Assembly (NCBI GenBank): GCA_964621395.1 | Contig: CAZULS010000001.1 | Coordinates: forward strand, 615-64,614 | Length of the DNA stretch: 64,000 nt | Direction: 5' to 3' | Source of the DNA: an uncultured Candidatus Saccharibacteria bacterium | GTDB taxonomy: Bacteria; Patescibacteriota; Minisyncoccia; Phycocordibacterales; JACNGX01 | In this document: piece by piece, positions 37,272 to 50,331 of the stretch | How positions within the stretch are numbered: position 1 is the stretch's first letter | Layout: the number at the start of each line of letters is the position of its first letter | Program-made: the position numbers and the translations under genes | The notes under the pieces: generated by a model | The model's database searches: none | Seen by the model: the letters and a program-made list of their open reading frames with translations, nothing else | Told to the model about the DNA's origin: nothing

Positions 37272-38316
37272 ATCTGCCTGGCTCCTCAATCGTATACTCA
37301 ATGTTGGTGCCGCTTGTCATTGCCATAGATAGCGGCTCCCTGTCCATCAGAGCAGTATAGGTGCCGTTGTTAAGTGTCGTTGCCGAAAAGTCGCCCTTGG
37401 AGAAGGTCTCGAGTCGGAACCCATCCCATGTCCAATTCTCTCGAACGTAGGGTATTCCAACATGTGTACTCATACTTGAAATGAACCCTTCAATACGCTC
37501 ACGCTCATTTTCATGTAAGTCGTACGTGTGACCACGCTGTACAAGATTGATCGGCAAACCACGCGGGTTAGATAACTTGAGCTGATGTCCAGACCTTTTG
37601 TTACGTCCGCCAGATTGATACTCGGCGCCATTGTAATAACCCTTTGCATTATATGTATCACGTAGTCGTAAAAAGGTATCCAGTCCTTCCATGATTTCAT
37701 AAAAACTGTGCTCGCTGGTACAAAAATGCTGATTCAAAATGTGTGCCGGATTGTCTATTTGCAGGTACTTGATCCAGTCCAAACAATTCTCTGTATAACC
37801 AAACAAATTGTTCCATACGCCATCCGCAAAAAGAAGCGGCCAGATTGCCTGTGGTGACAAGTTTGTGACAATGCCAGCGTGATGGAGAATACCCAGATAT
37901 AGATGAATTGCCCCAAATGGATATTTCCTCTGAAAATCTTTTTTACCATCAAAGCCGCGGAAGATGTTTGGCTGGATGCAATTATCGTAATGATAGTGTT
38001 GGTGAGTGATGCGGTTATTGTAGGTAACTAAGTGATTACCTAAACTTGGCACATTTGCCCTGTTTATTTCGACATCCAAAAATATACAGTCGTTTACCGA
38101 TAAACCATCTTTAATCACCAATACCTTGCCGTCGTAGTATCCCGCAACTTTTGCTCCCAAACAATGAGTGGCGAACAATCCACACAAAAAACCATCACTA
38201 TCAGGACCAAGCACTATATTCCTATCTCGTTCTATGATCCAAGGAAAAATATCAATCACTTTCTGATAGTCAAGAATTTCTCGTCCATCTTGTGTTTGTG
38301 TGTTTACATCAAACAT
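37264..38316 (-). CDS. Putative type II restriction endonuclease (cognate to the MTase; no family assignment)
   Basis: Position between the C-protein gene and the convergent MTase matches the classical PvuII/BamHI-like C-R/M layout. Start taken at MFDVNTQ (38316); the ORF track extends to 38370, overlapping the C gene. Confidence 0.5.
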   Translation of the reverse strand: MFDVNTQTQDGREILDYQKVIDIFPWIIERDRNIVLGPDSDGFLCGLFATHCLGAKVAGYYDGKVLVIKDGLSVNDCIFLDVEINRANVPSLGNHLVTYNNRITHQHYHYDNCIQPNIFRGFDGKKDFQRKYPFGAIHLYLGILHHAGIVTNLSPQAIWPLLFADGVWNNLFGYTENCLDWIKYLQIDNPAHILNQHFCTSEHSFYEIMEGLDTFLRLRDTYNAKGYYNGAEYQSGGRNKRSGHQLKLSNPRGLPINLVQRGHTYDLHENERERIEGFISSMSTHVGIPYVRENWTWDGFRLETFSKGDFSATTLNNGTYTALMDREPLSMAMTSGTNIEYTIEEPGRFN

Positions 38317-38317
38317 A

Positions 38318-38539
38318 CTACCGTGTGAAAAATGAAAGTTCTTTATTATATATCTTTGCAATCTCTTCAAGCTCTACAACATCAACTCTCCGTTCACCTC
38401 GTTCGATCTTTGATATGTAGGATTGAGGTCGTTTGAGTTTCTCTGACACCCCAACCTGAGTAAGTCCAGCTTCAAGACGAGCAGCTTTCAACTGCTCTAC
38501 AACCTTTTTATACTTATTAGAATACAGAGACCTGCTCAT
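38318..38539 (-). CDS. Controller (C) protein, XRE-family HTH, of the R-M system
   Basis: QLKAARLEAGLTQVGVSEKLKRPQSYISKIERGERRVDVVELEEIAKIY, typical of C.PvuII/C.BamHI-type regulators. Located immediately upstream of the endonuclease gene. Confidence 0.75.
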   Translation of the reverse strand: MSRSLYSNKYKKVVEQLKAARLEAGLTQVGVSEKLKRPQSYISKIERGERRVDVVELEEIAKIYNKELSFFTR

Positions 38540-38552
38540 ATAACGAGTTAAT

Positions 38553-38593
38553 GTTATAACCTATTGTGGAATAACCCAAAACAGGTTATGACA
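38553..38593. promoter_or_regulatory. Candidate C-box operator (tgttataacct-N19-aggttatgaca) upstream of the C gene
   Basis: Imperfect inverted repeat 14-55 nt upstream of the C-protein start. C proteins autoregulate via such palindromes. Confidence 0.4.
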
Positions 38594-38602
38594 TTAATCT
38601 CA

Positions 38603-38645
38603 CCACCACACAAAGACGTGCATTGAGCACGTCTTTGTGTGGTGG
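38603..38645. terminator. Perfect 19-bp hairpin (ccaccacacaaagacgtgc-attga-gcacgtctttgtgtggtgg) insulating the R-M islet
   Basis: Seen directly. Lies between the hypothetical gene at 39014 and the C-box region. Confidence 0.5.
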
Positions 38646-38935
38646 ATTATTACTGTTCTCACAATTTGTTCCTAGTTCCTAGGATACTAGGAACATTCCA
38701 TTTTGGGAAGTGCCAAAATGAAACCGAGCAAAGTCTTATCTTTCCCAATCCTCAATCACCAATGTCTTCCCTTTCTTTTTCACGACCACCTTTTGCTTTT
38801 CACGCCAGCCGAGCTCACGGACAAATTCAATCGGGAGTGTGACGGAGATTGTCCTTCCACGCCCTGTACGGAAGAGTTTACGGATATTGCGTTTACTGAG
38901 TATGCGCCGTGCCATATGTTTTAGTATACCACAGC

Positions 38936-38975
38936 CCTGCTCTAGAGCTAACTCTAGAGTTAGCTCTAGAGCAGG
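38936..38975. repeat. 40-nt perfect palindrome cctgctctagagctaa-ctctagag-ttagctctagagcagg
   Basis: Seen directly. It is also its own reverse complement. Lies just upstream of the 39014 gene. Confidence 0.8.
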
Positions 38976-39013
38976 TTCGTTTTTCCCAAAATCTCTGGTA
39001 CAATACCAATGCT

Positions 39014-39655
39014 ATGGCATCCGAACAATATTTGGCGAAATCTTTTGAGGAAGATTTTATACTCAAAACACTCAATGGGAAAGAAAAAGAACATTCCCAA
39101 ACAATTCAAAACATTCTGGAAACTCGCACGATACAGCCCAATACGTACAGCTTCGGACAAGAAAAAAGACTGGCATGCACATTCCTTCACGACAATTATC
39201 TGAAAACCTACCGTGCGCAAGGATTGATTTTTCAGACTCAACAAAAACCTGATTTCATTTATCCATTTGATATTGTCCTTCTTTCCGAAGCTGAAAAAAT
39301 AGTCGTGCAGTATTATAGAATTCAGCACCAACTGCATCTTCACTATAATCACGAATTGATTCCCGGTTTTGAACGATTTATTTTTGATGACATCCCCACT
39401 CTTTTGAAGAAATACCCAACGCAAGAAACACTCCTGGAAGACATTAATCGTTTTCGCATTGAGCATGGATACGGCGTTGTCCCCAAGCAAAAACGTAAGC
39501 TCATAGAGTACAACGAGGTCATCTTTCATGATCCCGTCGAAATCACTCCTATTGCTATCTTTGGATATCGATCAGCCGCACGAAAAATCGCCCGAGAATA
39601 CGGACTCCCTCATTTCACTTCTGCAAAGAAGTTTTATGAGTCTTTGGAGGGGTAG
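39014..39655 (+). CDS. Hypothetical protein (213 aa) in the R-M islet
   Basis: Start trimmed to MASEQYLAKS (ATG 39014), because the ORF-track start at 38909 would read through the 40-nt palindrome. No family motif recognised. Confidence 0.5.
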   Translation: MASEQYLAKSFEEDFILKTLNGKEKEHSQTIQNILETRTIQPNTYSFGQEKRLACTFLHDNYLKTYRAQGLIFQTQQKPDFIYPFDIVLLSEAEKIVVQYYRIQHQLHLHYNHELIPGFERFIFDDIPTLLKKYPTQETLLEDINRFRIEHGYGVVPKQKRKLIEYNEVIFHDPVEITPIAIFGYRSAARKIAREYGLPHFTSAKKFYESLEG

Positions 39656-39659
39656 GGGT

Positions 39660-39917
39660 TCGATTCCTGGCAGGGGCACTGATTCACAAAACACCACTCC
39701 CTTAAGGGAGCGGTGTTTTGCATCACGGCGCAAGCGCCGTAGAATCAGTGCCCCTGCCAGGAATGTCCCACAGTCACTAAGTAAAATACTTCGCCAAGGC
39801 TCGTATTTTACAAAGTGCTGCTGGACGCGGCTCGCGGTCTTCGCAGCAAGCTGCTCAGACATACTCCGCCGTTCGATTCCTGACGCGAGCCAAGCAGTTG
39901 GCTCGCTGCAGGGGCAC
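39660..39917. repeat. Array of partial tRNA-Arg(UCU) 3'-end copies and nested hairpins
   Basis: ggttcgattcctggcaggggcac (39662-39684). gtgcccctgccaggaat (39749-39765). gttcgattcctg-[acgcgagccaagcagttggctcgctg]-caggggcac (39871-39917). Followed by a 21-bp hairpin that closes onto the tRNA gene. Confidence 0.7.
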
Positions 39918-39950
39918 AAATGAAAAAGCCCTTCCGGACTTTTTCATTTG

Positions 39951-40022
39951 TGCCCCTGCCAGGAATCGAACCTGGAATGGGAGATTAGAAGTCTCCAGTT
40001 ATATCCGTTTAACTACAGGGGC
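39951..40022 (-). tRNA. tRNA-Arg (anticodon UCU)
   Basis: Minus-strand GCCCCUGUAGUUAAACGGAUAUAACUGGAGA-CUUCUAA-UCUCC..CAGGUUCGAUUCCUGGCAGGGGCA. Confidence 0.85.
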
Positions 40023-40031
40023 ATATCAAAC

Positions 40032-40352
40032 TTACCATGCCGGGTCTTTCACCTCAAGCCCTTCGGAGAGCAGCTGGGCATACGCTTCTTCTTTCTCCGC
40101 ATATAAACGAATAACATCGTTCATGGATTCAATGTCGAGTGTATATGATTCATACATTGACGCGGTGCGTACTCCCGTCTCCTGCTCCTGAAACACGATC
40201 ATCCGTGCACCTATATTGAAAAGCAATGCGCACACGGAAATACCCACGACGAGCACATACCAATCACGCGCCGGTTTATATGGTCGCTTCAATGTATCGC
40301 GGTGGATAAGCCGCATATACGTCTTTTGCATGTGAGTAAGTGAAAATTTCAT
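40032..40352 (-). CDS. Small single-TM protein, last gene of the pilM-pilN operon region
   Basis: TM WYVLVVGISVCALLFNIGARMIVF. 106 aa. Confidence 0.45.
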   Translation of the reverse strand: MKFSLTHMQKTYMRLIHRDTLKRPYKPARDWYVLVVGISVCALLFNIGARMIVFQEQETGVRTASMYESYTLDIESMNDVIRLYAEKEEAYAQLLSEGLEVKDPAW

Positions 40353-40394
40353 ATTAGAACTAGAAACAGTCTCACTGAAAATGGCTTGTTCTCA

Positions 40395-40934
40395 TTACAG
40401 AGTAACGTTCAAAAGCCGAAACGTATGCGAACCTCTCCATATGTCCTCCTCCCCGTTATACTGAAGGTCAATCTCGTCCACAGTAATATTCCATGGATAC
40501 GTTTCAAGAAGAGCAACGTAGAGGATCGACTGCTCCCATGTACCAACAGTTGTCACGCTAATATCAAGAGAGGAGATCTCTGTGCCGTCTGTTGGCTTCT
40601 CTCGTGTATCAATATCGTGCAGTGTGAGCACAACACCGGCAGACTCCCCCATGTCTTCTATACTATCAATCAATTGCAACATGCCGTCGTCTCCCTCAAC
40701 GATCCGCGAGCGAAGCACATCTCGAATGTCACGAGTCTGCTCAAAGGTATGCTCCACTTTTTTCGCCGCATCATTGTGTTGGGAAAGAGTGTACGACTCT
40801 TCTTCAAGAACCTGAATCTTCGTGAGAGTGTCGTATGTCATGTACGAAAGTGCCCCATACACACCCCACGCACCAAAAGCGGCGAAGAGTGCAATAACTA
40901 TGGTAATGGCAGTATGTGTATTCATACAGAACAA
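40395..40934 (-). CDS. PilO-like pilus assembly protein (tentative)
   Basis: N-terminal TM, then a coiled-coil-like region. Lies immediately downstream of pilN, and the gene order is as in the pilMNO operon. Confidence 0.4.
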   Translation of the reverse strand: MFCMNTHTAITIVIALFAAFGAWGVYGALSYMTYDTLTKIQVLEEESYTLSQHNDAAKKVEHTFEQTRDIRDVLRSRIVEGDDGMLQLIDSIEDMGESAGVVLTLHDIDTREKPTDGTEISSLDISVTTVGTWEQSILYVALLETYPWNITVDEIDLQYNGEEDIWRGSHTFRLLNVTL

Positions 40935-41486
40935 TTACTCCTGAAACGTCAATGAAAAATCAATATCATACTCACTGATAAAACTTCCCACGGGAATATT
41001 AATGCCGGAAAATCCTTCTGCTTCAAGTGCGCGAGCAAATCCGACCAAATCTTCTCTGGTATCGGCAATACCGTGTACATGGATAACTCCTCCTTCTTTT
41101 TCAGCATCATAGGCAATACCGCGCACAGAAACTCCCGTACGGGCATCCGCAATGCGAAGAAAAATACGTTCGTATACCAATGTGTGCGGTTCATAGACAT
41201 GAGAAAGCAACGCTACGGTTGCATTCATCTCATCGAGCTCTTCTTTAATTTCCTCAACATACGCTGCTTCCTCGCCTTCTCTTGCAAGGGTCATCCACTC
41301 CCGAACGATGTCATGTTCCATTGTATACCCCCAATACACAATTCCCGCAACGGCGGCGGAAAAAGCACCAAGGAGTGCGGCAAACACACCGGCGGTTGTC
41401 GTGAGATTCATGCGGTACGACGTACGCAATTCCTTTTTCTTTTGCACGGGTAAAAGATTGATCATACTTATGCCAGCCCCAATCAA
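40935..41486 (-). CDS. pilN: Type IV pilus assembly protein PilN
   Basis: MINLLPVQKKKELRTSY N-terminal PilN signature, followed by a TM. Confidence 0.7.
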   Translation of the reverse strand: MIGAGISMINLLPVQKKKELRTSYRMNLTTTAGVFAALLGAFSAAVAGIVYWGYTMEHDIVREWMTLAREGEEAAYVEEIKEELDEMNATVALLSHVYEPHTLVYERIFLRIADARTGVSVRGIAYDAEKEGGVIHVHGIADTREDLVGFARALEAEGFSGINIPVGSFISEYDIDFSLTFQE

Positions 41487-41626
41487 CCTCCGTACGGTAA
41501 CACATTACGGAATTTCGAGCGAAAAACGAGATGGAGCGCGCGCCATAACGAGTTATGGTAAGCGCGAAGCGAAGTTTTGTAGCCGAAATTCTGTGATGTG
41601 TGTACGGTTGTTGGTTGGGGATGGTA

Positions 41627-42709
41627 TTAACATGTCATGTGTGGCAATGCCAAGCCGATAACTGTGGCGTATCCAAGCGACTTATTGTGCGGAATAGGTG
41701 GAATATACATATCAAGCGAACAGCAGTTGGTCCACGGATTTCCCACACTGATAGGCACCTTGAGTCTGTGGGAAAGGAAAGGAGCCAGTCCGTTCATATT
41801 GGCACCGCCGCCGGAGAGCAAAATATCACTTATGCGCTGCTCGTCTTTGTGCTTTGCGTGATAGGTATGCCAATAGATATACAGCTTGTGTAATTCGTCT
41901 TCCAGGTGCTCAAGCGATGGGAGAAGAGCTTCGTAAAAATCCTTTTGTGCCGGATGGAGCGGTAGCGCATTTTTCATTTCCAGCACTTCTTCAGACGACA
42001 CCGACAATGCGGCTTTCAGAGCACGAGTAAATGTCTCACTCCCCATGTCGATGGTTGAGGTAAAACGCACAAGATTATTGTGAATGATTGACACGCCGGT
42101 ACGCAAACGACCGATATCGACAATCATCACGGCTGCTGAGCGTTTCTCCTCAGGAATAATCGCCCGAGCGATTGCCTGGCTTTCGATTTCAAACGACAAT
42201 GGGACAATACCCACTTCTTCAAGAACGGTTGCGTATCCTTCCACATCTTCGCGAGGCATTGCCGCCACCAACACCCGTATCGTGGATTCCGATGACAGAT
42301 CATCGAGAACGGTGTAATCAAAAATAACGTTCTCGGGCTTGAGCGGCACATATTCCTCAATCTGAAATGTAATACTTTCCCTGATTTCATTTTCCTCAAC
42401 GCGCGGAATATCCATGTGCACAATGTATGCACGCTCTTCCGGAAGCGATACATGTGCATAGGTGCAATGATAGGTACGTTTTACTCCCTGCATAATGGCC
42501 GAGAATTCCAGGGGTCGCTTGATGTGCCCGCTCACAATCACGCCCGGAGGAATGGTCATTTCTCCGTGTCGTTTGACTCTCAATGCGTCTTTTTCGCCAG
42601 ACAATTCAAGCACGCGCACTCTTCTATCGGTAATGTCGAGTCCGACCGATGGAAACGTCAATGCGCGCGGAACAGGCAATGTCTGTGCCAAAGAATCACA
42701 GATACTCAT
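41627..42709 (-). CDS. pilM: Type IV pilus assembly ATPase-like protein PilM
   Basis: Actin-like fold signatures VGLDITDRRVRVLEL...VDIGRLRTGVSII. Start trimmed to MSICDSL. Confidence 0.8.
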   Translation of the reverse strand: MSICDSLAQTLPVPRALTFPSVGLDITDRRVRVLELSGEKDALRVKRHGEMTIPPGVIVSGHIKRPLEFSAIMQGVKRTYHCTYAHVSLPEERAYIVHMDIPRVEENEIRESITFQIEEYVPLKPENVIFDYTVLDDLSSESTIRVLVAAMPREDVEGYATVLEEVGIVPLSFEIESQAIARAIIPEEKRSAAVMIVDIGRLRTGVSIIHNNLVRFTSTIDMGSETFTRALKAALSVSSEEVLEMKNALPLHPAQKDFYEALLPSLEHLEDELHKLYIYWHTYHAKHKDEQRISDILLSGGGANMNGLAPFLSHRLKVPISVGNPWTNCCSLDMYIPPIPHNKSLGYATVIGLALPHMTC

Positions 42710-42759
42710 AATACATGTATTATACCCGAAACACCCGAGCACGAACACGTCTCTGTGCA

Positions 42760-43404
42760 CTACATTGCAATAAGCCAAATCATGAGGCCCACAAAAGCAA
42801 TGCCGAGTGTGATCCATGCAATCATGCGCGGAAGAGACATGCCGGGCAACGCGCCGAGCCTGTCGGTCACATACGCAGCCAAACCAAAACGTACGATGCG
42901 AGAAATAATCGAAGCAATAACAAATATGGGAAATGAAACGGCAAACACACCGGCACCAAGAGTAAACAGCTTATACGGAATCGGGGTAAAGCCCGCCATA
43001 AAGACGGCAATGAATGCATTGTTTTGAAACGCTTCGGCAACAGCCTTAAACGCTTCATGAGCATGATACGTATCAAGAATCCATGTGCCCCAGGTATCAA
43101 AAAAGAATGCGCCGATGATAAATCCAATCATACCGCCAAATACCGAACCGGCTCCTGCAACGACAGCCGGTACCGCCCAATCGAGGAAACGGCGCAATCG
43201 CGAAGTCGCTCGCTCTTGTGCCATTTTCTTCAGTGAGACAATCGGAATGAGAAGCGCTTCCGGCGGTACGGGGAAAAAGACCGCCTCGGCGGCACCAAGG
43301 AGGAAAAGAAAAACGAGAGCGCCGCGCCCTTGGGCGCGGCGCGCAACCCGCTCCTTCAAAGAAAACTTCTTTCCCTCTTGTGTTATTGGTGTTTCAGGTG
43401 TCAT
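42760..43404 (-). CDS. DedA/YqaA-family membrane protein
   Basis: AVFFPVPPEALLIPIV core motif and multiple TMs. Confidence 0.7.
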   Translation of the reverse strand: MTPETPITQEGKKFSLKERVARRAQGRGALVFLFLLGAAEAVFFPVPPEALLIPIVSLKKMAQERATSRLRRFLDWAVPAVVAGAGSVFGGMIGFIIGAFFFDTWGTWILDTYHAHEAFKAVAEAFQNNAFIAVFMAGFTPIPYKLFTLGAGVFAVSFPIFVIASIISRIVRFGLAAYVTDRLGALPGMSLPRMIAWITLGIAFVGLMIWLIAM

Positions 43405-43497
43405 GTCAGAGTATACATAAAGTCTTTATTTGTTCTCTAGATCCCGCATCAAGTGCGGGATGACAAGTGTCTGATTTAGAATGACAATTAACTCTTT

Positions 43498-43630
43498 TGT
43501 CATTCCGGACTCCTGCCGAGCTCGACTTTCACTGATTACATTAAAAAATTGTAAACGATAGAAGAAAGAACAAAAAAATGTTTTGCTGTAAACGACATTA
43601 GTGAAAGTGGGGCTCTGGTGATCCGGAATC
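43498..43630. mobile_element. MITE-like ~130-nt composite element (tgtcattccggactcctgccgagctcgactttcactga...agtgaaagtggggctctggtgatccggaatc)
   Basis: ~30-nt terminal inverted repeats built on the stem-loop family, with a ~70-nt AT-rich core. Full-length paralogues at 51880-52011 and 62147-62277 in the opposite orientation. Overlaps the 3' end of ruvX. Confidence 0.65.
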
Positions 43631-44023
43631 TTCGCTATGTCTTTTCTGCTTATCCAAATACCGCTGCAGAATAAGTGCCGCCGCCGATGCATCGTTTGTC
43701 TCCGTCTTTCCTTGCATCTTTCGCGCCTCCTGCGACGTATCATATTCCCACTCAAAATGCACACTGAGGCCGGTTGCTTCTTCAAGCGCTCGAGCATACG
43801 CTTGAGATTCTTCCCAAATCGGATTCTCTTCTCCCGAACGCATGCGTGACTCTCCCATGACAATCACACTCACGCTATGCTCACGAACAATCTCTTTGAT
43901 TCGCTCCACACTCTCCTCCCTCGCAGAAACAACTTCAAGCGGAAATGCCAATGTACCACTCTCATCTGAAAGCGCGACGCCAAGGCGTTTGGTTCCATAA
44001 TCAATGCCAAGATATGTGCTCAT
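43598..44023 (-). CDS. ruvX: Holliday-junction resolvase-like RuvX/YqgF
   Basis: LGIDYGTKRLGVALSDESGTLAFPL and SV...DASAAALILQ motifs. Start trimmed to MSTYLGIDYG. Confidence 0.85.
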   Translation of the reverse strand: MSTYLGIDYGTKRLGVALSDESGTLAFPLEVVSAREESVERIKEIVREHSVSVIVMGESRMRSGEENPIWEESQAYARALEEATGLSVHFEWEYDTSQEARKMQGKTETNDASAAALILQRYLDKQKRHSEDSGSPEPHFH

Positions 44024-44027
44024 ATTT

Positions 44028-45323
44028 TTATACCGACTTCCTATACTGAGTAATCGCATCAGCAATGCTCTTCAGCGTTGTCTCAAACACCGCTTCATCC
44101 GGCTCAAGGAGTGTCATACGAAAACCAAGAATATCGGTGTTAAATCCCGAAAGAGGCACCACGCAAATTCCGGTGGAAGCAAGAAGATAATACACAAAAC
44201 GCTTATCGACAGGCACGTCCTTCACCGCTTTTTCGGTGAGCTCTCGCACGGCATCGTTCTCAATCGGGAGTGTCCCGCCCTCCGGCATATCATCAAAGAC
44301 GACTGAATAATAAAAAGAGCTTTCCGCGCGCGGCGCAATCACACCATGGGTGTTTCCCAGAGCCTTATATGCTTGGTCTGCACGATTCGCATATGTCTTC
44401 ACCCGCGCGCGGACGTGGGCTTCGTATCGCTCATCGGAGAAAAGTTTCGGCAACACCCGTTGCGGCAGTGTCGTTGAACACACCTCAAGCATTTTGGCAT
44501 CATGTAGTGTCTTTACATACCTACAAAACGACTCATCGACATCCGCATTATACACCTCAATCCATCCGGCACGCGCACCCGGCCACGGCACCTCTTTTGA
44601 AAGTCCGCGCATGACAATGGCAGGCACGTCGCTACCGACAAGCTCCGCAAGCGCAACAAATTCGCCGTTATATGCCAAGCGGGCATAGGTCTCATCGGCA
44701 ATAAGAAAAAGGTTATGCCGACGAGCAATAGCCACAATTTCTTCAAGGACCCGGCGCGGATATACCATGCCGGTGGGATTATCAGGATTGATAATGAGAA
44801 TACCGGCAACGGCAGGATTGTAGAGTACTTTGTTTTTAATATCCTCCACATCCGGCAGCCAATTACGATGTGGGTCCAGCGTGTAGGTAATATGCGGGGA
44901 TCCTGCATGCGCCGCCTCAGCCGATGAATGCGTCGGATACGCCGGCGACGGACCAATAATACGCGCTCCCCGGTGGAGATACGTATACACAATAGAAATC
45001 GCATCTCCCAAGCCATTGAAGAAAAGAATATCATCAGGAGACAGATCCACGCCCGACTCTCGTTTTCTCTCCTCGGCAATACACTCACGCGCTTCCTTCA
45101 CCCCCTTGGTCGGTGAATAGCCGAAAGAATCATTTTCCTGCACCTCAGACGCAATAATATCCCGAATCCACTCAGGCACCTTCTCGCCCTTGGCAATCGG
45201 ATCACCAATATTTTCCCAGATAATATCCACGCCCAGTTTTTCAATCTTCTCAGCAAAATCAACAATCCCCCGTATTTCATACGAGAGCTCATCAGCACCT
45301 TCATGAACAATTCGCGTTCGCAT
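44028..45323 (-). CDS. PLP-dependent aminotransferase, class I/II (alanine aminotransferase-like)
   Basis: NIGDP...SKEVPWPGARAGW..., the fold-type I aminotransferase pattern. Start uncertain (45323 or 45401). Confidence 0.8.
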   Translation of the reverse strand: MRTRIVHEGADELSYEIRGIVDFAEKIEKLGVDIIWENIGDPIAKGEKVPEWIRDIIASEVQENDSFGYSPTKGVKEARECIAEERKRESGVDLSPDDILFFNGLGDAISIVYTYLHRGARIIGPSPAYPTHSSAEAAHAGSPHITYTLDPHRNWLPDVEDIKNKVLYNPAVAGILIINPDNPTGMVYPRRVLEEIVAIARRHNLFLIADETYARLAYNGEFVALAELVGSDVPAIVMRGLSKEVPWPGARAGWIEVYNADVDESFCRYVKTLHDAKMLEVCSTTLPQRVLPKLFSDERYEAHVRARVKTYANRADQAYKALGNTHGVIAPRAESSFYYSVVFDDMPEGGTLPIENDAVRELTEKAVKDVPVDKRFVYYLLASTGICVVPLSGFNTDILGFRMTLLEPDEAVFETTLKSIADAITQYRKSV

Positions 45324-45501
45324 GGGAGTCAGTATACCAATGCCACACCTCTTCCGCCAGCCCGCGACCAAAGCCCGACGCGCCATCAAACACTCTCTCA
45401 CTTCTCACATCATATTGCGTATGAGGTGTGGCATTGCAGTAAGATAGGAGATTAGTAGGTTAGTAAAAAGGCACGCTATCGCGCGCCTTCATTCATAATT
45501 C

Positions 45502-45780
45502 TTGCTTCTTTATTCTCTTTGTTGGTATACTATGCACATGGACATCATAGAAATCGTCAACAATCCAATTGCCATGCTTTTGCTTATTGCATGGGTACTG
45601 CCGTGGAAAGGGTACGCGCTGTGGCTTGCATCACGACGCAATCAAACCTGGTGGTTTATCGCATTGCTTGTCTTGAATACCGTAGCAATTCTCCCCATCA
45701 TCTACATCTTTCTCGTCGCCCCACGCTACAGTGAAATCGGCGAGGAAGAAAAAGGTATATCTTCAGACGACAAAAGATAG
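45502..45780 (+). CDS. Small two-TM membrane protein (DUF5652-like: PWKGYALWLASRRNQTWWFIALLVLNT)
   Basis: Signature resembles a family common in Patescibacteria. An alternative start at MHMDIIEIV is possible. Confidence 0.55.
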   Translation: MLLYSLCWYTMHMDIIEIVNNPIAMLLLIAWVLPWKGYALWLASRRNQTWWFIALLVLNTVAILPIIYIFLVAPRYSEIGEEEKGISSDDKR

Positions 45781-45864
45781 ACGTACCGTAAAACCCTTGT
45801 ATGATATGAGGGTTTTAAAACAGTGGCATAAATCTATGCAAATTTGTTTTCCGGCGACACGAAC

Positions 45865-45951
45865 TTGACAAAAGATTCAATGTGATATAGTATGCAGTCA
45901 GTCAAATAAATAAGCCATTTCCTAAAAAAATACCTAAAGGAGGTAACCATG
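45865..45951 (+). promoter_or_regulatory. Near-consensus sigma70-type promoter (TTGACA-17-TAGTAT) plus strong SD (AAAGGAGGT) for the 45949 gene
   Basis: TTGACA at 45865-45870, 17-nt spacer, TAGTAT at 45888-45893. AAAGGAGGTAACCATG at the gene start. Confidence 0.5.
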
Positions 45952-46488
45952 TTAGCTCTTTCCGTTCTCAAGGATGTTAAAACGCTTGAAAAACAAATCC
46001 AGGAATACGCCAAAGAGGTCTATGCCCGCATCACCGGATTTCCTTCAGAAGTCCGAAACGACACCAAAAAACGCACGGGAATCTGGGTCCTGGTCGGAGA
46101 ACCGGATTCCAGAAACTTCGTGAAATTCAAGGTTAGCAGACCTTCAGATGCGGCAAATCATTTCTGCTCTGAAAAAGCAGTTCGTTCCAGCGGTCGGGGA
46201 GAAGCTTCCTCAACAAATAGCCGTGATCCTCACAGGTCTCGTTTCAGCGGAAGCATTACCGTGGAAGTTCTCATTTGCCAGAGCGAAAATGAATATATGG
46301 ACTTGCAGTGTTCTATCTCTGGGCTCATGGAGCCAGAAGACACAGCAGGCGCAATTATGATTCTTGCAGAATTGCTCTGCGTCTCTTGTCAAGAAATCTG
46401 CGAAAATGTCCATGACCAAGGAGGAGAACTTCCTGAAGAAATTACTCAAAACGGCCACTATCTTAACGATCTTTTGTTCGCCGTTTAA
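45949..46488 (+). CDS. Hypothetical Cys-containing protein (179 aa) with a strong promoter/SD
   Basis: ORF with CxxxC/CxSCxxxC clusters near the C-terminus. No family recognised. Confidence 0.5.
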   Translation: MLALSVLKDVKTLEKQIQEYAKEVYARITGFPSEVRNDTKKRTGIWVLVGEPDSRNFVKFKVSRPSDAANHFCSEKAVRSSGRGEASSTNSRDPHRSRFSGSITVEVLICQSENEYMDLQCSISGLMEPEDTAGAIMILAELLCVSCQEICENVHDQGGELPEEITQNGHYLNDLLFAV

Positions 46489-46556
46489 GAGATTCCTGGA
46501 CAAAAACAAACCGCACACGTCAGTACACAGAGACGTTATGCGGTTTTTATATTTCT

Positions 46557-47285
46557 TTATTTCCTCAGCCACACCTTTCGTTCTTTTTCAGGAAACTTTT
46601 CGATTGCGTAGCGAAGCGTGGTGCGTGGCATGTGATGAATATGTTTCTTAAGAAATTGCCTCAACACTTTCTCGTCCTGCTTGCCAATTTCACGAAGCAT
46701 CCAGCCAACGGCTTTGTGGAGTAAATCTTCTCTGTCTCCAAGGAGTATTTCGGCAATGGAGAGAGCGTCGGTAAATTTCCCCGCACGAATAAAAGGAAAC
46801 ATGGCGAGCATGGCAATGCGGCGTTCCCACATGTTTTTTGAACGTGCAAAATCATACAAAAAAGCACGTTCCTTTTTCGGACGAGACAACAGATGCGTGC
46901 CCACAATGTGCGGTGTTGTCACATCCACCAAATCCCAATTATTGATTGCCGCGCGATTATCCAGATAAAAATCAAAGATGTCTTGTTTCTTCTGCGCATC
47001 GTTCGTCTTCTGATATTGGCTCACCAATATAAGAAGACCAGCCATGCGCTCCTCATGCCACGTGCTTTTGAGCAGTGTGTGTATATGCGCAAAAGAAAGA
47101 TCAGGGAAATGTTTCGCAGCACCGCGAATCTCCGGCATGGAAAGCCCAAGAAATTGATCCCCTTCCCCATACTGTCCGGGACCGGTTTTGAAAAACCAAG
47201 CGTAGTCCTTTGCTCGCTCCTTACTCCCTAGAGCCCGAATCTCTTTTTGCACCGCTCGTGCTGACATAATGTGCGTATTACTCAC
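46557..47285 (-). CDS. DNA alkylation repair protein (AlkD-like HEAT-repeat glycosylase family)
   Basis: ...DYAWFFKTGPGQYGEGDQFLGLSMP...NNWDLVD..., typical of the DNA_alkylation family. Confidence 0.7.
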   Translation of the reverse strand: MSNTHIMSARAVQKEIRALGSKERAKDYAWFFKTGPGQYGEGDQFLGLSMPEIRGAAKHFPDLSFAHIHTLLKSTWHEERMAGLLILVSQYQKTNDAQKKQDIFDFYLDNRAAINNWDLVDVTTPHIVGTHLLSRPKKERAFLYDFARSKNMWERRIAMLAMFPFIRAGKFTDALSIAEILLGDREDLLHKAVGWMLREIGKQDEKVLRQFLKKHIHHMPRTTLRYAIEKFPEKERKVWLRK

Positions 47286-47877
47286 TGAACAAAACTACAC
47301 AATGCCCCTCTTCTAATGCGTGAATAGGTAAAGAACTATCGCCATATTTTTCAAGATCGCTATATGCTTTATCCCAATCAATAGTACCTCGCGGATCTTC
47401 TGCTCCATAATCTGACTCAAAATGCGCAATAAATTTAATCGGCAGCACACCTAATCCGTCCATACATGTTCGCCAATCACATGTCCAAAAGTGCCTCACA
47501 AGAGCATTTGAACCCGCAGAGCTGGCACCAACAGTTTTCCCTTCAAAAATTGTAGGAATATTAAATTCCTTTAACCAATACTGAAGCAAGTGATCGTCAC
47601 CGCCATGAATGTAAATTGCATCCGCGTCTTTGACTTGCTCCTCAAAATTCTCCGGCATTGTCATCTCAAAAACCGGCTCCACTCCATCCGGAACAAGAGA
47701 CGGTATGCTTTCAATATCTTTTTGATATTTTTCTTCCCAACGTTCTCTTGGTAGGGCAAAGAAACAAAGTAATAACTTCGGACTCTCACCAAACCCCTCG
47801 AGCATCTCAGTAAAAAAACTGTCGGAAAGTTCGGGCTTATTGCGCAAGCCGCCTGAATTGAGCACATATTTCGTCAT
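47278..47877 (-). CDS. Peptidase S51 (dipeptidase E)-like / class I glutamine amidotransferase-like protein
   Basis: IYIHGGDDHLL and GASSAGSNAL (GxSAG nucleophile elbow) motifs. Overlaps the downstream gene by 8 nt. Confidence 0.65.
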   Translation of the reverse strand: MTKYVLNSGGLRNKPELSDSFFTEMLEGFGESPKLLLCFFALPRERWEEKYQKDIESIPSLVPDGVEPVFEMTMPENFEEQVKDADAIYIHGGDDHLLQYWLKEFNIPTIFEGKTVGASSAGSNALVRHFWTCDWRTCMDGLGVLPIKFIAHFESDYGAEDPRGTIDWDKAYSDLEKYGDSSLPIHALEEGHCVVLFSE

Positions 47878-47976
47878 GACCCGATTCTATCATGTTAGAG
47901 AGCTCATCGCATTGTCTTCCTGGAAAACAGTTGCCCCGATACGTATTTCGTTCTATAGTAGTGCATACATAATTAG

Positions 47977-48063
47977 GGAGAGGTGGCAGAGTGGTCGATT
48001 GCACCGGTCTTGAAAACCGGAGTGCGGGAAACCGTACCGAGGGTTCGAATCCCTCCCTCTCCG
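47977..48063 (+). tRNA. tRNA-Ser (anticodon UGA), long variable arm
   Basis: GGAGAGGUGGCAGAGUGGUCGAUUGC-ACCGG-UCUUGAAA-ACCGG-variable arm-GAGGGUUCGAAUCCCUCCCUCUCCG. Confidence 0.85.
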
Positions 48064-48540
48064 CATTTGAAAATCCCGCCCATTTAGGCGGTGATTTTCT
48101 TATGCGGAGAGGAGGAAGCCAACTGCTTGGCTTTCGTGAGGGATTCGAAAAGGTTCTCCCATATTTTTGAGGAGCTTTGCTCCGAAAAAATGGGAAACCT
48201 GCACTGCTCCTGTAAGGAGAGAATCCCTCCCTCTCCGCAGTGAACGAAGTGAATAAGGCGGTGGAGGGATTCGAACCCGTAGGGGGTCGGGGTGAGGAGC
48301 GAATACGTGGAGCTCCGCAAGACCTTTTGAGATATATTGGAGAGCTTTGCTCGAACAATATATCCATAAAGGTGTACTGTTCCTGTAAGGAAGGCGGAAC
48401 GCCCCCGTGGAGGAGGCAACGCGGAACCGTGGGTTCCGCGAGCGCAGTCCAGCCCTACTTTTTCAAAAGTAGGGCTGGACGAGCAGTGAGCATTCCCTCC
48501 CTCTCCGCATAAATAATGAGTCAGGTGCGTGTCCACATCC
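48064..48540. repeat. Array of tRNA-Ser 3'-end fragments (direct and inverted) interleaved with two copies of the conserved ~75-nt module
   Basis: Inverted acceptor + agccaactgcttggct hairpin + inverted T-arm at 48103-48149. Modules at 48155-48228 and 48315-48393. ccctccctctccgca repeats at 48235-48249 and 48499-48513. Confidence 0.7.
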
Positions 48541-48571
48541 CTATTGGTATTTGATATAGTATACTAAACAT

Positions 48572-49057
48572 ATGGAAGAAAACGCTCTCAACGAACCATT
48601 CCAATGGACAGCGCCGGAATATCAGCAAAGAGCTCACACGCCTGATTGGTATTGGGGAGTCGGACTTACCGGTGCCGTGCTTGTTGCTGTCGGCATCATC
48701 ACAAACAATCCCTTCTTCTCAATCTTCATCGTCATTGCTGTTGCTTCCATTTTCTTTTTCCACGTCCGCACGCCGCACATTGTTGATTTCGGCGTCTCAC
48801 GCAAAGGAGTCCGTGTCGACAAGACACTCTACCCCTTCGCTACACTTGAGTCATTTTGGATTAGGGAGAATATTCTTGAAGAGAAAGAGCCGAAGCTCAT
48901 TTTGAAATCAAAAAAGATGGTTATGCCACTCGTCATTATCCCGCTTCCGGAAGGCGTTGATTTCGATGAACTGCAAGACTTCCTCGAACAATTCCTCTCC
49001 GAAGAAGAACACCCCGAGCAGCTCTCCGAGCAGATTATGGATCGGTTGGGATTCTAG
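48572..49057 (+). CDS. Hypothetical two-TM membrane protein
   Basis: TM segments (VGLTGAVLVAVGIITN, FSIFIVIAVASIFFF). Acidic C-terminus. Confidence 0.5.
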   Translation: MEENALNEPFQWTAPEYQQRAHTPDWYWGVGLTGAVLVAVGIITNNPFFSIFIVIAVASIFFFHVRTPHIVDFGVSRKGVRVDKTLYPFATLESFWIRENILEEKEPKLILKSKKMVMPLVIIPLPEGVDFDELQDFLEQFLSEEEHPEQLSEQIMDRLGF

Positions 49058-49145
49058 ATTTAGAAATAAGAAAAACCTAAAGCCCGACAAGCCGGGCTCG
49101 GTCACGGTAGAAATTAGAAAATAGAAAACACCCTTGCGGGCGTTT

Positions 49146-49721
49146 TTACGTTTTCAAAGAAAATCTTTTGTATTCTCGCCATTCTCCTTTTTCGTTTTGA
49201 ATAGCGAGGCAGACATTATCGATTTTAATCTCTCTTTCAAATGTCTTCCCCGAAAGATATTCTTTGGCTTTTTCATATCCATCTTCCGTCAAATCTTTAT
49301 ACGCAACAGTAATGTGAGGACTATAGGGTAGCGGCTGCTGGTACCACACCGCATACGAACTCGCGATGTTTTCTTCAAAAAATGTTGTTATTTCCCCGAG
49401 CCCTCCCAAATTGTATGGCTTGATGTACACAACAAAGGGACTCAATCCGAGCTTCGCACCTTGTGTCCAATCAGACATAAAAGAAAATGTTTGAGTCTCT
49501 ATGTGAAAAACAGGAACATTTTCTAGAAAGGCTTCTATTTCTTCATACAACTTTTCTAATTGTTCACCAGTAACTTCAACGCCCGAACCCACCGTAATAT
49601 GTGGTTCCCATACTTCCCACGCACCTTTTGAGTCGGTGATATCTGTTAATTCTTTCTGAATTTCCACAATTTCTTTGGCAATCTCTTTGGGGAAATACGA
49701 GACAATTGAGAATGTATACAT
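49146..49721 (-). CDS. 2H phosphoesterase superfamily protein (LigT/2'-5' RNA ligase-like)
   Basis: Two H-x-T-x motifs (HITVGSG and HITVAYK). Start trimmed to MYTFSIV, because the upstream ORF extension covers tRNA-derived repeats. Confidence 0.7.
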   Translation of the reverse strand: MYTFSIVSYFPKEIAKEIVEIQKELTDITDSKGAWEVWEPHITVGSGVEVTGEQLEKLYEEIEAFLENVPVFHIETQTFSFMSDWTQGAKLGLSPFVVYIKPYNLGGLGEITTFFEENIASSYAVWYQQPLPYSPHITVAYKDLTEDGYEKAKEYLSGKTFEREIKIDNVCLAIQNEKGEWREYKRFSLKT

Positions 49722-49790
49722 GGACCTATGGTAGCACATGTGTTGATTGGGAGGAATTGCCTCGGAACCACCTAAAGTAAGTCGCTGGAT

Positions 49791-49838
49791 GTCGATTCCT
49801 GACGCAAGGCAAGCAGTTGCCTTGCTCCGAGGGGACAC
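49791..49838. repeat. Inverted tRNA-Arg(GCG) 3'-end duplicate with inserted hairpin (gtcgattcctg-[acgcaaggcaagcagttgccttgct]-ccgaggggacac)
   Basis: Same architecture as 39871-39917 and 48103-48149. The insert is homologous (aaGCAGTTg core). Confidence 0.7.
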
Positions 49839-49878
49839 AGCAAAAAGGGCACCCACAGGTGCTCCTTTCTGCAATGTG

Positions 49879-49950
49879 TCCCCTCGGCAGGAATCGAACC
49901 TACATTACGAGCTCCGCAAGCTCGCGTCCTATCCGTTGAACGACGAGGGG
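49879..49950 (-). tRNA. tRNA-Arg (anticodon GCG)
   Basis: Minus-strand CCCCUCG-UC-GUUC-AACGGAUA-GGAC-G-CGAGC-UUGCGGA-GCUCG-UAAU-GUAGG-UUCGAUU-CCUGC-CGAGGGG-A. The anticodon loop places GCG at positions 34-36. Confidence 0.7.
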
Positions 49951-49989
49951 AAGGTTTGAGAGCGAGCTTTCGCTCGCTCTCAGGGATTA

Positions 49990-50253
49990 TTATTTCGACG
50001 CTTTTGCGAGAGCGGCGGCAAGGCGTGATTTCTTGCGCGCTGCGGTGTTTTTCTTAATCACCCCGCGCTTTGCAGCCTTATCAATCGCCTTGTATGCATC
50101 AGAAAGCTTCGCCTGTGCATCTCTCGAACTGTCTTTCATTGCACTGCGAACGCTCTTCACCGCCTCACGCATGGTGCGACGACGACGATCGTTAAACGTC
50201 TTCTTTGCGGCGGAAACTTTCACCGCCTTCTTTGCTGAACGTGTTATCGGCAT
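49990..50253 (-). CDS. rpsT: 30S ribosomal protein S20
   Basis: MPITRSAKKAVKVSAAKKTFNDRRRRTMREAVKSVR..., Ala/Lys-rich, 87 aa. Confidence 0.9.
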   Translation of the reverse strand: MPITRSAKKAVKVSAAKKTFNDRRRRTMREAVKSVRSAMKDSSRDAQAKLSDAYKAIDKAAKRGVIKKNTAARKKSRLAAALAKASK

Positions 50254-50331
50254 AGTTACGAAACTATATCAGGTTTTACCTCAAAAGGCAAGTGTTTTGT
50301 CCTGCACTGATGGGTGTGATAAAATGCTCGT

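What the first reader, a model, noticed from the sequence alone, without database searches (positions are those of the whole stretch)
43498..43630. Three full-length ~130-nt MITE-like composite elements built on the stem-loop family, plus a compact 69-nt variant
Three copies share about 30-nt terminal inverted repeats and a ~70-nt AT-rich core. They lie at 43498-43630, 51880-52011 and 62147-62277, the latter two in opposite orientation to the first. The termini read gatcccgcatcaccagagccNcactttcac ... cagtgaaagtgaagctcggcaRgagtgcgggatgaca. A compact version at 13217-13285 keeps the termini around a cactttagtgaaa palindrome. None encodes a protein. One overlaps the 3' end of ruvX, and others sit beside solo stem-loops. 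This is the architecture of non-autonomous transposable elements mobilised in trans.
Basis: seen in the sequence. Interest (0 to 1): 0.55.

Follow-up and report, generated by a model that had tools for sequence, protein, structure and literature searches.

The report
Foldback inserts inside Ssn-type DNA hairpins
The three ~130-nt elements are real, but each is a short repeated DNA hairpin of the known Neisseria NTS/dRS3 type whose tip has been split by a ~106-nt non-coding foldback insert, and comparison with near-identical strains shows that the insert, not the whole 130 nt, is what comes and goes.

Summary
Three ~130-nt copies lie at 43499-43629(+), 51881-52010(-) and 62148-62276(-), and a compact relative lies at 13218-13284.

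The outer ~11 nt of each "terminal inverted repeat" is not part of a MITE. It belongs to a ~24-nt hairpin, TGTCAT-stem-CTTGA-stem-ATC, present about 20 times in the window. This hairpin matches the Neisseria NTS/dRS3 and "Ssn-related motif" class, which small GIY-YIG Ssn nucleases bind and cut as single-stranded DNA (PMC11893778).

Two metagenome scaffolds are 96.8% identical to window 51790-52330. They carry the plain hairpin where the window has the composite. The only large difference is a 106-nt indel (51892-51997) exactly in the loop, CT^TGA, with no target-site duplication and no microhomology.

The same insert sits in hairpins with different stems, always in one orientation. A copy 92% identical to copy 3 lies in an unrelated gene context in another Parcubacteria MAG. 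A second insert type shares the same middle stem but has a different inner stem and core.

The host is a Parcubacteria-like CPR bacterium. More distant relatives lack all of these elements. No transposase or Ssn gene lies in the window, so the mobilising enzyme is unknown. I judge it a new variant of a known kind.

The parts
43499..43629 (+). Composite copy 1. Outer hairpin arms are GTCATTCCGGA+CT (43499-43511) and TGA+TCCGGAAT (43619-43629). The type-A foldback insert is 43512-43618 (107 nt).
   Evidence: The outer stem is TCCGGA/TCCGGA, unlike copies 2 and 3.
51881..52010 (-). Composite copy 2. The outer stem is ATCCCGCA/TGCGGGAT. The type-A insert is 51892-51997 (106 nt).
   Evidence: L189 and L190 have the plain hairpin here. 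The flanks are 96.8% identical and differ by a single 106-nt indel at TCA^AG (CT^TGA on the canonical strand).
62148..62276 (-). Composite copy 3. The outer stem is ATCCCGCA/TGCGGGAT. The type-A insert is 62159-62263 (105 nt).
   Evidence: It is 92% identical to L032 678-807 (Parcubacteria MAG NIOZ-UU136), which has unrelated flanking genes.
13218..13284 (+). Compact variant: outer hairpin, middle stem (GCCGAGCAC/GTGCTTGG) and inner stem (TTTTCACT/AGTGAAAA), with no core.
35289..35339 (+). Another loop-expanded hairpin of the same family, with an unrelated 32-nt loop content (CTCGACCCTACACCGCAAGCGGTCGGACACAA).
43441..43464 (-). Plain short hairpin (TGTCATCCCGCACTTGATGCGGGATCT) next to copy 1. 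It is part of the ~190-nt block inserted between ruvX and the VTT-domain gene.
   Evidence: It is one of the two copies that match the published SRM pattern.
51821..51845 (+). Plain short hairpin that forms an inverted doublet with copy 2. The spacer is conserved.
   Evidence: (family D2).
43598..44023 (-). ruvX (141 aa). Its last 15 codons and stop codon come from the spacer, the hairpin arm and the insert arm.
8306..54502 (.). The plain short hairpin family. Copies lie at 8306, 8359, 9272, 9331, 17563, 17622, 20576, 20636, 22628, 25303, 26674, 43441, 51821, 53028, 54418 and 54479 (start coordinates). Many are inverted doublets about 59 nt apart.

Best explanation
Each composite is a hairpin of the NTS/SRM class with a non-coding foldback insert of about 106 nt in its apical loop. 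NTS/SRM hairpins have a 5' GTC, an 8-bp perfect palindrome that starts with AT, a 5-nt CTTGA loop and a 3' C.

SHOWN
- The insert is the unit that is gained or lost.
- It sits exactly between CT and TGA of the loop.
- It always has the same orientation relative to the asymmetric GTC...C flanks.
- It has no target-site duplication.
- It occurs in hairpins with different stem sequences.
- Its own ends pair with each other: a middle stem CCGAGCTyCAC/GTGrGGCTCTGG and an inner stem TTTCACT/AGTGAAA. The element therefore prolongs the host stem into a helix of about 35 bp capped by an A+T-rich core of about 65 nt.
- A second insert type has the same middle stem but a different inner stem and core. 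The structure is therefore nested and modular.

INFERRED
- The host hairpins are substrates of an Ssn-type GIY-YIG single-strand DNA nuclease encoded elsewhere in the genome. That nuclease reads the GTC, the stem and the 3' C.
- The published enzyme tolerates replacement or extension of the loop in vitro. A hairpin with an insert should therefore stay functional, which would make the loop a safe and structurally exposed landing site.
- Insertion and excision happen on folded single-stranded DNA at the hairpin tip and are catalysed in trans by an enzyme not yet identified. The new tip is then available for a further insertion.
For: 1. Filled versus empty site at near-identity. L189 and L190 match the window at 417 of 431 flank positions and differ by one 106-nt gap in the loop, with no shared bases at the junctions.
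2. Stepwise series at the VTT-RuvA junction. L185 and L194 have a 9-24-nt gap. L189 and L190 have a ~390-nt block with two plain hairpins. The window has the same block plus the insert.
3. The same insert occurs in different outer stems: TCCGGA in copy 1 and CCCGCA in copies 2 and 3 and in L032. The type-B insert is 96% identical between L018 (TCCGGA stem, ruvX site) and L180/L182 (CCCGCA stem, VTT-PilM site).
4. Every type-A, type-B and 30-nt type-C insert lies at CT^TGA in one orientation.
5. Insert arms are 87-100% identical, against 53-76% for the core.
6. The GTCAT strand folds 8-15 kcal/mol better than its complement, because the mismatches are G.T wobbles.
7. Hairpin family identity. 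GTC, AT...AT and C are invariant in 16 copies. All 128 stem cells are Watson-Crick and 5 of 8 pairs show compensatory changes. Three copies read GTCATTCCCGC...GCGGGAATC, as in the published NTS CGTCATTCCCGCGMAVGCGGGAATCYRG. The plain hairpin occurs in 117 IMG/VR contigs of 35-73% G+C.
8. The literature reports that SsnA binds and cuts only the forward single strand, needs the 3 nt upstream of the palindrome and the C after it, and accepts loop removal or extension (PMC11893778).
9. Loop-expanded hairpins of this class also occur in unrelated viral contigs.
Against: - No Ssn/GIY-YIG gene and no transposase or recombinase was found in about 70 window ORFs. The rest of the genome could not be retrieved, so the link to Ssn rests on sequence resemblance and the literature.
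- The published degenerate SRM pattern matches only 2 of the ~17 short copies.
- The direction of the 106-nt event, insertion or precise excision, is not determined.
- Copies within the window are only 74-81% identical overall. No recent donor for copy 2 is therefore visible.
- The insert was never seen outside a hairpin loop. Co-movement with the hairpin therefore also occurs and cannot always be told apart from movement of the insert alone. Copy 3 and L032 share a few nt of flank beyond the hairpin.
- The ruvX-site history is ambiguous. The window and L018 share the site, the outer stem and the middle stem but differ in the core, while L180, a close relative of L018, is empty.
Confidence: 0.7

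Rival explanations
1. Classical MITE. The whole ~130-nt unit, including the gatcccgcatc.../...gtgcgggatgaca ends, is an internally deleted IS. A DDE transposase that binds the double-stranded terminal inverted repeats moves it.
For: It has long inverted termini, no ORF, several dispersed copies and presence/absence polymorphism. Copy 3 and L032 share the whole unit plus a few flanking nt.
Against: The indel boundaries fall inside the loop, not outside the outer arms. There is no target-site duplication at any copy. The outer arms are a separate 24-nt element that is far more abundant and is found across phyla. The outer stem differs between copies while the inner arms stay nearly identical. 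No transposase is in the window.
Confidence: 0.07
2. The long form is ancestral. The composites are the full-length element, and the 24-nt hairpins are its deletion derivatives. L189 and L190 lost the interior through hairpin instability.
For: Long palindromes are unstable in bacteria. The compact 67-nt form could be an intermediate. The direction of the copy-2 indel is not shown directly.
Against: The short form with the same CTTGA loop is pan-bacterial (Neisseria NTS, 117 viral contigs). The long forms were found only in this small clade. There is no microhomology at the junctions that would drive slippage, yet the result is the exact canonical loop. Three unrelated inserts use the same CT^TGA position.
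Confidence: 0.1
3. Recombination mosaic rather than a self-contained mobile element. A site-specific recombinase acts at the centre of the hairpin, as the phage-encoded transposase that integrates Neisseria filamentous prophages into dRS3 does. It shuffles or leaves behind short segments, producing NIME-like mosaics. The inserts are then passengers or scars.
For: The position at the palindrome centre, the fixed orientation and the absence of duplication all fit a site-specific recombinase. dRS3 is a documented integration target, and NIME arrays are dynamic mosaics (PMC1797815; PMC11893778). Inner modules can be swapped within a constant frame. Whole multi-part blocks are present or absent at the ruvX and RuvA sites.
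Against: No recombinase is in the window. The inserts have long self-complementary ends that are conserved better than their cores, which is expected if the ends themselves matter for movement. NIME units keep whole dRS3 palindromes on each side, whereas here one palindrome is split.
Confidence: 0.15
4. Structured non-coding RNA gene or cis-regulatory RNA: a long-hairpin small RNA, stabiliser or terminator.
For: The fold is strong, with a strand asymmetry caused by G.U-compatible wobbles. The location is intergenic.
Against: No Rfam family matches, even at E<=1. The canonical strand is antisense to ruvX at copy 1 and sense to the flanking genes at copy 3, so orientation relative to transcription is not consistent. 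Sites are present or absent between 97%-identical strains. The core is poorly conserved. The genome has ordinary intrinsic terminators of its own. The published nuclease does not act on RNA.
Confidence: 0.05

Closest known systems
Neisseria NTS / dRS3 and 'Ssn-related motifs' (SRM), hairpin repeats bound and cut as ssDNA by GIY-YIG SsnA nucleases (Chenal et al. 2025, PMC11893778)
   Same: The host hairpin has a GTC directly 5' of a palindrome that starts ATTCC/ATCCC and a C directly 3'. Three window copies read GTCATTCCCGC...GCGGGAATC, as in the NTS. The family is high-copy and intergenic, often in inverted pairs and clusters. Orientation is defined by the non-palindromic flanks. Loop content is free, and the paper shows that loop extensions are tolerated in vitro.
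   Different: The host is a Patescibacteria/CPR bacterium, whereas the paper stresses Pseudomonadati. The loop is CTTGA or CCyCyGA and the 3' flank is TTC rather than YRG. Most copies fail the published degenerate pattern. No ssnA gene was seen in the 64 kb. Natural loop inserts of 30-135 nt, nested and polymorphic, are not described there.
Neisserial intergenic mosaic elements (NIME: dRS3-RS-dRS3 arrays; PMC1797815)
   Same: Low-G+C segments of 50-150 nt are associated with ATTCC...GGAAT palindromes. Syntenic sites are dynamic and mosaic between strains. Modules come in many families, some with short terminal inverted repeats.
   Different: In NIMEs the RS segment lies between two complete palindromes. 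Here the segment lies inside one palindrome, splitting it into two arms that still pair.
REP / REPIN-RAYT and BIME systems
   Same: These are short intergenic hairpins with a conserved 5' motif, arranged as inverted doublets with a spacer and associated with a single-strand-specific HUH enzyme. They are vertically inherited and form sequence populations within a genome.
   Different: The 5' motif is GTC(AT), not GTAG. No RAYT (Y1 transposase) was found in the window. The composite is not a doublet but one hairpin with a filled loop.
MITEs and foldback elements (for example Correia elements)
   Same: They are small and non-coding, with long inverted termini, several copies, strain polymorphism and arms better conserved than the core.
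   Different: There is no target-site duplication. The target is the apical loop of another repeat. Orientation relative to the target is fixed. No cognate IS is known.
IS elements that target palindromic repeats (IS110/IS1111 family in REP or attC sites; the Nf prophage transposase in dRS3)
   Same: Insertion goes into the centre of a repeated palindrome in one orientation, without a typical duplication.
   Different: Those are autonomous elements of about 1.2-1.5 kb or more, without long terminal inverted repeats. Here the insert is 30-135 nt, has no ORF and has foldback ends. This comparison rests partly on my own knowledge and was not tested.

Membership tests
NTS/SRM hairpin repeats (Ssn-related motifs) | Three conserved nucleotides (GTC) immediately 5' of the palindrome, needed for cleavage | tested here: met
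   GTC is invariant in 16 of 16 short copies and in all composites. The requirement comes from PMC11893778.
NTS/SRM hairpin repeats (Ssn-related motifs) | Perfect or semi-palindrome that forms a hairpin, starting AT(T/C)C..., followed directly by a C that is critical for binding | tested here: met
   All 128 stem cells are Watson-Crick, and AT/AT and the 3' C are invariant. The composites keep all of these.
NTS/SRM hairpin repeats (Ssn-related motifs) | Match to the published degenerate pattern HGTCWYN(0-2)YYVSBRHN(0-5)WNVSBRGN(0-2)RNCYNB | tested here: inconclusive
   Only 2 copies match (20632-20660 and 43437-43465), against 0.2 expected. The other copies fail at the GGG-type stem positions.
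NTS/SRM hairpin repeats (Ssn-related motifs) | A cd10448-type single-domain GIY-YIG gene (ssnA) in the genome, often flanked by the hairpins | tested here: inconclusive
   No ORF of the 64-kb window has a GIY-YIG Pfam hit or motif. The remaining ~300 kb of the contig and the rest of the genome could not be fetched.
NTS/SRM hairpin repeats (Ssn-related motifs) | Strand-specific binding and cleavage as single-stranded DNA | not testable with these tools
   Only indirect evidence is available. The GTCAT strand of the composites folds 8-15 kcal/mol better than its complement.
Classical MITE | Target-site duplication flanking the element | tested here: not met
   The empty site reads TCA|AG and the filled site reads TCA[106 nt]AG. 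No repeated flank is seen at any copy.
Classical MITE | Terminal inverted repeats shared with an autonomous IS in the same genome | tested here: inconclusive
   Inverted termini are present. No transposase is in the window. The whole genome is not available.
Classical MITE | Several copies at non-homologous sites, with presence/absence polymorphism | tested here: met
REPIN / REP-RAYT | Inverted REP doublet plus a single-copy RAYT (Y1 transposase) gene flanked by REPs, with a conserved GTAG 5' motif | tested here: not met
   Doublets of the short hairpins exist. However, the motif is GTC, no Y1_Tnp hit is in the window, and the composite is a single hairpin.
NIME (dRS3-RS-dRS3) | A repeat segment flanked by two complete 20-bp dRS3 palindromes (ATTCCC-N8-GGGAAT) | tested here: not met
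   The segment lies inside one palindrome. The window palindromes are ATTCCC-N10-GGGAAT or ATyCyG-N9-CrGrAT.
Any Rfam RNA family | Covariance-model match at or near the gathering score | tested here: not met
   Only tRNAs pass. The sole overlap is a sub-threshold Thr_leader match (35 bits against 55), driven by the neighbouring terminator.

The most novel reading that the evidence does not exclude
A previously undescribed class of tiny foldback elements (30-135 nt) homes into the apical loop of Ssn-type single-strand DNA hairpins. Insertion is orientation-specific and leaves no duplication. Each insert extends the helix and offers a new tip for the next insertion, which gives nested hairpins in the style of Russian dolls. 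This would imply an unknown integration and excision chemistry directed at hairpin tips in CPR bacteria. It may use the Ssn nuclease together with host ligation or repair, or a recombinase not yet recognised.
Probability: 0.4. Interest if true: 0.75.

Novelty: new variant of a known kind. Interest (0 to 1): 0.55.

Why it matters
The biological role of NTS/SRM hairpins outside Neisseria is open, and nobody knows how they multiply. This locus gives three things.

1. It shows a dense population of such hairpins in a streamlined CPR genome, together with sister lineages that lack them. The invasion is therefore recent and traceable.
2. It provides natural counterparts of the in-vitro finding that the Ssn enzyme ignores the loop. 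Loops here carry 30-135-nt cargo.
3. It provides a clean filled/empty pair with nucleotide-exact boundaries. This defines a target (CT^TGA), an orientation rule and the absence of a duplication, which are constraints that any proposed mechanism must meet.

It also shows a direct cost or effect on genes. At one site the inserted block rewrote the C-terminus and stop codon of RuvX and separated two formerly abutting genes.

For genome annotation, it warns that "MITE TIRs" can be chimeras of a target hairpin and an insert.

Tried and rejected
- Genome-contig scan with GAAAGTGNGGCTCTGGTGA. It gave 17 hits, of which 16 were chance matches.
- Metagenome-contig scan with a two-arm pattern. It gave 10 hits, and only L032 was real.
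- Viral-contig scans for the middle-stem junction. 29 of 30 hits were chance matches, and L092 is a single look-alike. L150 was a chance match.
- Retrieval of the window's own contig through its exact RuvX failed.
- Search for a RAYT, another transposase or a GIY-YIG gene among ORFs flanked by hairpins. The 8575-9123 ORF is RecO. All others are housekeeping genes or have no hit. Motif scans of the window and of the viral loci found none.
- Terminator hypothesis rejected. The hairpins lack a T-run and the genome has classical terminators. My first table also placed elements between divergent genes. Its crude gene calls were wrong for at least the copy-2 region, where the real upstream gene is a +-strand VTT gene, so I give that table little weight.
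- Integron attC sites, CRISPR repeats and retron msd were considered from memory and dropped. The end motifs, the spacing and the absence of neighbouring integrase, cas or RT genes do not fit.
- BLAST of a composite against the plasmid and phage collections gave no match.
- I ran no further search on a remembered Ssn-like probe. With no contig look-ups left, its hits could not have been placed in genomic context.

Full report
WHAT IS THERE

The two arm patterns occur as pairs exactly three times in 64 kb, against none in shuffles. A hairpin scan gives the limits 43499-43629(+), 51881-52010(-) and 62148-62276(-), read on the strand that starts with GTCAT. Each folds into a stem of about 35 bp around an A+T-rich unpaired core of about 65 nt. 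As DNA the z-scores are -3.3 to -4.8. The 67-nt element at 13218-13284 has the same tiers of stem but no core.

Copy 1 supplies the last 15 codons and the stop codon of RuvX. No Rfam family matches, even at E<=1. Nothing similar exists in the plasmid or phage collections.

THE STEM-LOOP FAMILY UNDERNEATH

The outermost ~11 nt on each side of a composite are the two arms of a much more common 24-25-nt hairpin. Its consensus is T-GTC-AT(T/C)C(C/T)Gnn-CTTGA-nnC(G/A)G(A/G)AT-C-TTC.

- At least 16 plain copies lie in the window, often as inverted doublets about 59 nt apart with a conserved spacer.
- In an alignment of 16 plain copies from the window and its relatives, GTC, the AT/AT base of the stem and the 3' C never vary. 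All 128 stem cells are Watson-Crick pairs. Five of the eight pairs show changes on both sides, and none is changed on one side only.
- The exact pattern GTCATYCCGnnCTTGAnnCGGRATC is not lineage-specific. It occurs in 117 IMG/VR contigs of 35-73% G+C, mostly followed by CA.

A full-text sequence search led to Chenal et al. 2025 (PMC11893778). That paper reports the following:

- The Neisseria NTS is CGTCATTCCCGCGMAVGCGGGAATCYRG and encloses the classic dRS3 repeat.
- Related "Ssn-related motifs" occur in many bacteria.
- They are bound and cut, as single-stranded DNA and on the forward strand only, by ~94-aa GIY-YIG nucleases (SsnA, cd10448).
- Binding depends most on the C right after the palindrome.
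- The loop can be removed or replaced by extensions, including extensions that lengthen the stem.

Three window copies read GTCATTCCCGC...GCGGGAATC, as in the NTS. I therefore file the short hairpins as NTS/SRM-like, with two caveats. The published degenerate pattern matches only 2 window copies. No GIY-YIG gene is present among the roughly 70 window ORFs I scanned.

HOST

RuvX and RuvA homologues place the window in a Parcubacteria-like CPR lineage. The nearest named relatives, at 56-65% identity, are Candidatus Yonathbacteria. The window's own 360-kb NCBI contig could not be retrieved.

WHAT ACTUALLY MOVES

Two ENA scaffolds, L189 and L190, encode a RuvA 91% identical to the window's. They align with window 51790-52330 at 417 of 431 positions (96.8%). 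Apart from a 1-nt gap, they differ by one 106-nt indel.

- L189 and L190 read GATCCCGCATCA|AGTGCGGGATGAC, the plain hairpin.
- The window has CCAGAGCCCC...GCTCGGCAGG (51892-51997) at the bar.

On the canonical strand this is an insertion between CT and TGA of the CTTGA loop. No base is duplicated, and no microhomology at the junctions could drive slippage. The unit that is gained or lost is therefore the inner ~106 nt, and the outer arms are the target.

The same junction gives a stepwise series:

1. L185 and L194 (RuvA 87% and 73%) have 9-24 nt between the VTT-domain gene and ruvA.
2. L189 and L190 have a ~390-nt block with two plain hairpins, a 48-nt palindrome and a conserved leader-like segment.
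3. The window has that block plus the insert.

FURTHER EVIDENCE OF MOBILITY AND MODULARITY

1. L032 is identical to L002 (Parcubacteria MAG NIOZ-UU136). It carries a composite 92% identical to copy 3, next to UvrA-like and UvrB genes that are unrelated to the window context.
2. At the ruvX-VTT junction, L019, L021 and L180 have abutting genes with no element. The window has a ~190-nt block, and L018 has an element at the same position.
3. Copy 1 has the outer stem TCCGGA, whereas copies 2 and 3 and L032 have CCCGCA. Their insert arms are nevertheless 87-100% identical.
4. A second insert, type B, shares the middle stem CTCCTGCCGAGCTCGAC/GTGGGGCTCTGGTGA. Its inner stem (CCCAGCTCTAAGC/GCTTGGGGCTGGG) and core are unrelated to type A. 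It is 96% identical between L018 (TCCGGA stem, ruvX site) and L180/L182 (CCCGCA stem, VTT-PilM site). The inner stem plus core is thus exchangeable at the tip of the middle stem (GAC^GTG).
5. A 30-nt type-C piece sits at CT^TGA in two further hairpins with different stems, in L181 and L185.
6. Other unrelated loop fillings occur at window 35289-35339 and in viral contigs L034, L050, L092, L135 and L137.
7. All A, B and C inserts have the same orientation relative to the GTC...C flanks.
8. The GTCAT strand of the A-type and compact elements folds 8-15 kcal/mol better than its complement, because arm mismatches are G.T wobbles. This fits a single-strand process specific to one strand.
9. About 36 kb from more distant relatives (L021, L191-L194) contains no hairpin of the family. 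The invasion is therefore confined to a sub-clade.

HOW IT MOST LIKELY WORKS

Shown:
- The structure is nested and modular.
- The loop-internal boundaries are exact.
- There is an orientation rule.
- There is no duplication.
- The insert arms are better conserved than the core.
- The determinants that the published enzyme reads (GTC, stem, 3' C) are intact.

Inferred:
- The host hairpins are Ssn substrates that act as folded single-stranded DNA.
- Because Ssn ignores the loop, a loop insert does not disable the hairpin. In a gene-dense CPR genome, the loop is then a tolerated and structurally exposed site.
- A foldback insert whose ends pair stacks on the host stem and recreates an apical loop. 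This explains the nesting.

The catalyst is unknown. Candidates are a recombinase that targets the centre of the palindrome, as documented for the Neisseria filamentous prophage at dRS3. Another is a single-strand HUH-type enzyme. A third is nuclease cutting followed by host joining. None of these is encoded in the window.

RIVALS

- A classical MITE model fails on the boundaries, the missing duplication and the independent identity of the outer arms.
- The view that the long form is ancestral is unlikely. The plain form is pan-bacterial, and three unrelated inserts share one position.
- A NIME-like recombination mosaic remains a serious alternative for the mechanism.
- An RNA gene is unlikely. 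Orientation relative to transcription is inconsistent, the sites are polymorphic between strains, the core is poorly conserved and there is no family match.

OPEN POINTS

- The direction of the copy-2 event is not determined. Within the window the nearest copy is only 81% identical.
- It is not known whether the genome has ssnA.
- The history of the ruvX site is unresolved. The window and L018 share the site, the outer stem and the middle stem but not the core, while L180, a close relative of L018, is empty.

VERDICT

The short hairpins are a known kind (NTS/SRM). The loop-resident, nested, polymorphic foldback inserts in a CPR genome are, as far as the searched literature shows, not described. 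I judge it a new variant of a known kind, of moderate to fairly high interest.

Noticed in passing
window 9441-13142 (-): The isoleucyl-type class I tRNA synthetase ORF is 1233 aa long. A complete histidine-phosphatase (His_Phos_1) domain lies at residues 557-723, splitting the tRNA-synt_1 catalytic domain.
   Followed up: no
window 8427-8474, 16282-16329, 52030-52077; related 13290-13340: A second family of long, near-perfect 48-nt palindromes (CCAAGGTTAAACCTTGG-loop-CCAAGGTTTAACCTTGG). Three of the four sit just beside a hairpin doublet or a composite. They are conserved in L189 and L190.
   Followed up: partly
window 20833-20944, 29067-29219, 52174-52309: A repeated segment of about 110-150 nt, 73-80% identical across three copies. 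One copy lies directly upstream of the ruvA start and is conserved in L189 and L190. It overlaps short ORFs with no Pfam hit and could be a leader or a small RNA. There is no Rfam match.
   Followed up: partly
L019 1240-1275 and L020 311-346 (inside ruvX); L181 506-559; L185 2840-2893; L018 376-399: A motif of about 22-30 nt (CGCGAAGCCTTGGCGAAGTGGG) occurs in hairpin loops. It also occurs in frame inside the ruvX coding sequence of one lineage, where it adds 10 residues (GSASRSLGEV) to RuvX.
   Followed up: partly
L074 3850-6420 and L147 (IMG/VR contigs): In a phage-like contig, six to eight identical plain hairpins lie in one orientation. Several are inside a 503-aa ORF, where they translate as repeated PRHSGLDPES peptides. 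The hairpin class apparently also sits within coding sequence in some viruses.
   Followed up: no
window 6184-6209, 40357-40382, 51722-51747, 52113-52138: Four copies of a 20-nt motif, GAACCAGTCTCACTGAAAAC. It may be an operator or a promoter-associated site (family D15).
   Followed up: no
window 61992-62024, 62049-62081, 55397-55429, 45482-45516, 30577-30621, 13356-13386; L018 341-371: A+T-rich repeats of the form GAATAAAGAATTAyGAAT recur in many intergenic regions and in a relative (families D8, D19, I19 and I22).
   Followed up: no
window 22751-24400 (-): A PIF1-like helicase gene lies directly beside a hairpin doublet (22628/22717).
   Followed up: no
window 53028-53051 versus L185 1404-1427 and L190 1530-1553: The orthologous hairpin between ruvA and the Mur ligase gene differs between relatives by one compensatory double change (TCCGGA/TCCGGA versus TCCGCA/TGCGGA). 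The left partner of the doublet is present in L190 and L185 but absent from the window.
   Followed up: partly
window 51163-51825 (-) versus 51205-51756 (+): The longest ORF here (- strand, 220 aa, no Pfam hit) is probably spurious. Relatives encode a VTT-domain protein on the + strand at this position.
   Followed up: partly
L092 2033-2086: A viral contig of 60% G+C holds a loop-expanded hairpin whose junctions (GGAC-GCCTGCCAGG...CCTGGTGA-TCC) resemble the middle-stem junctions of the window composites. A scan for this junction found no further real case.
   Followed up: yes
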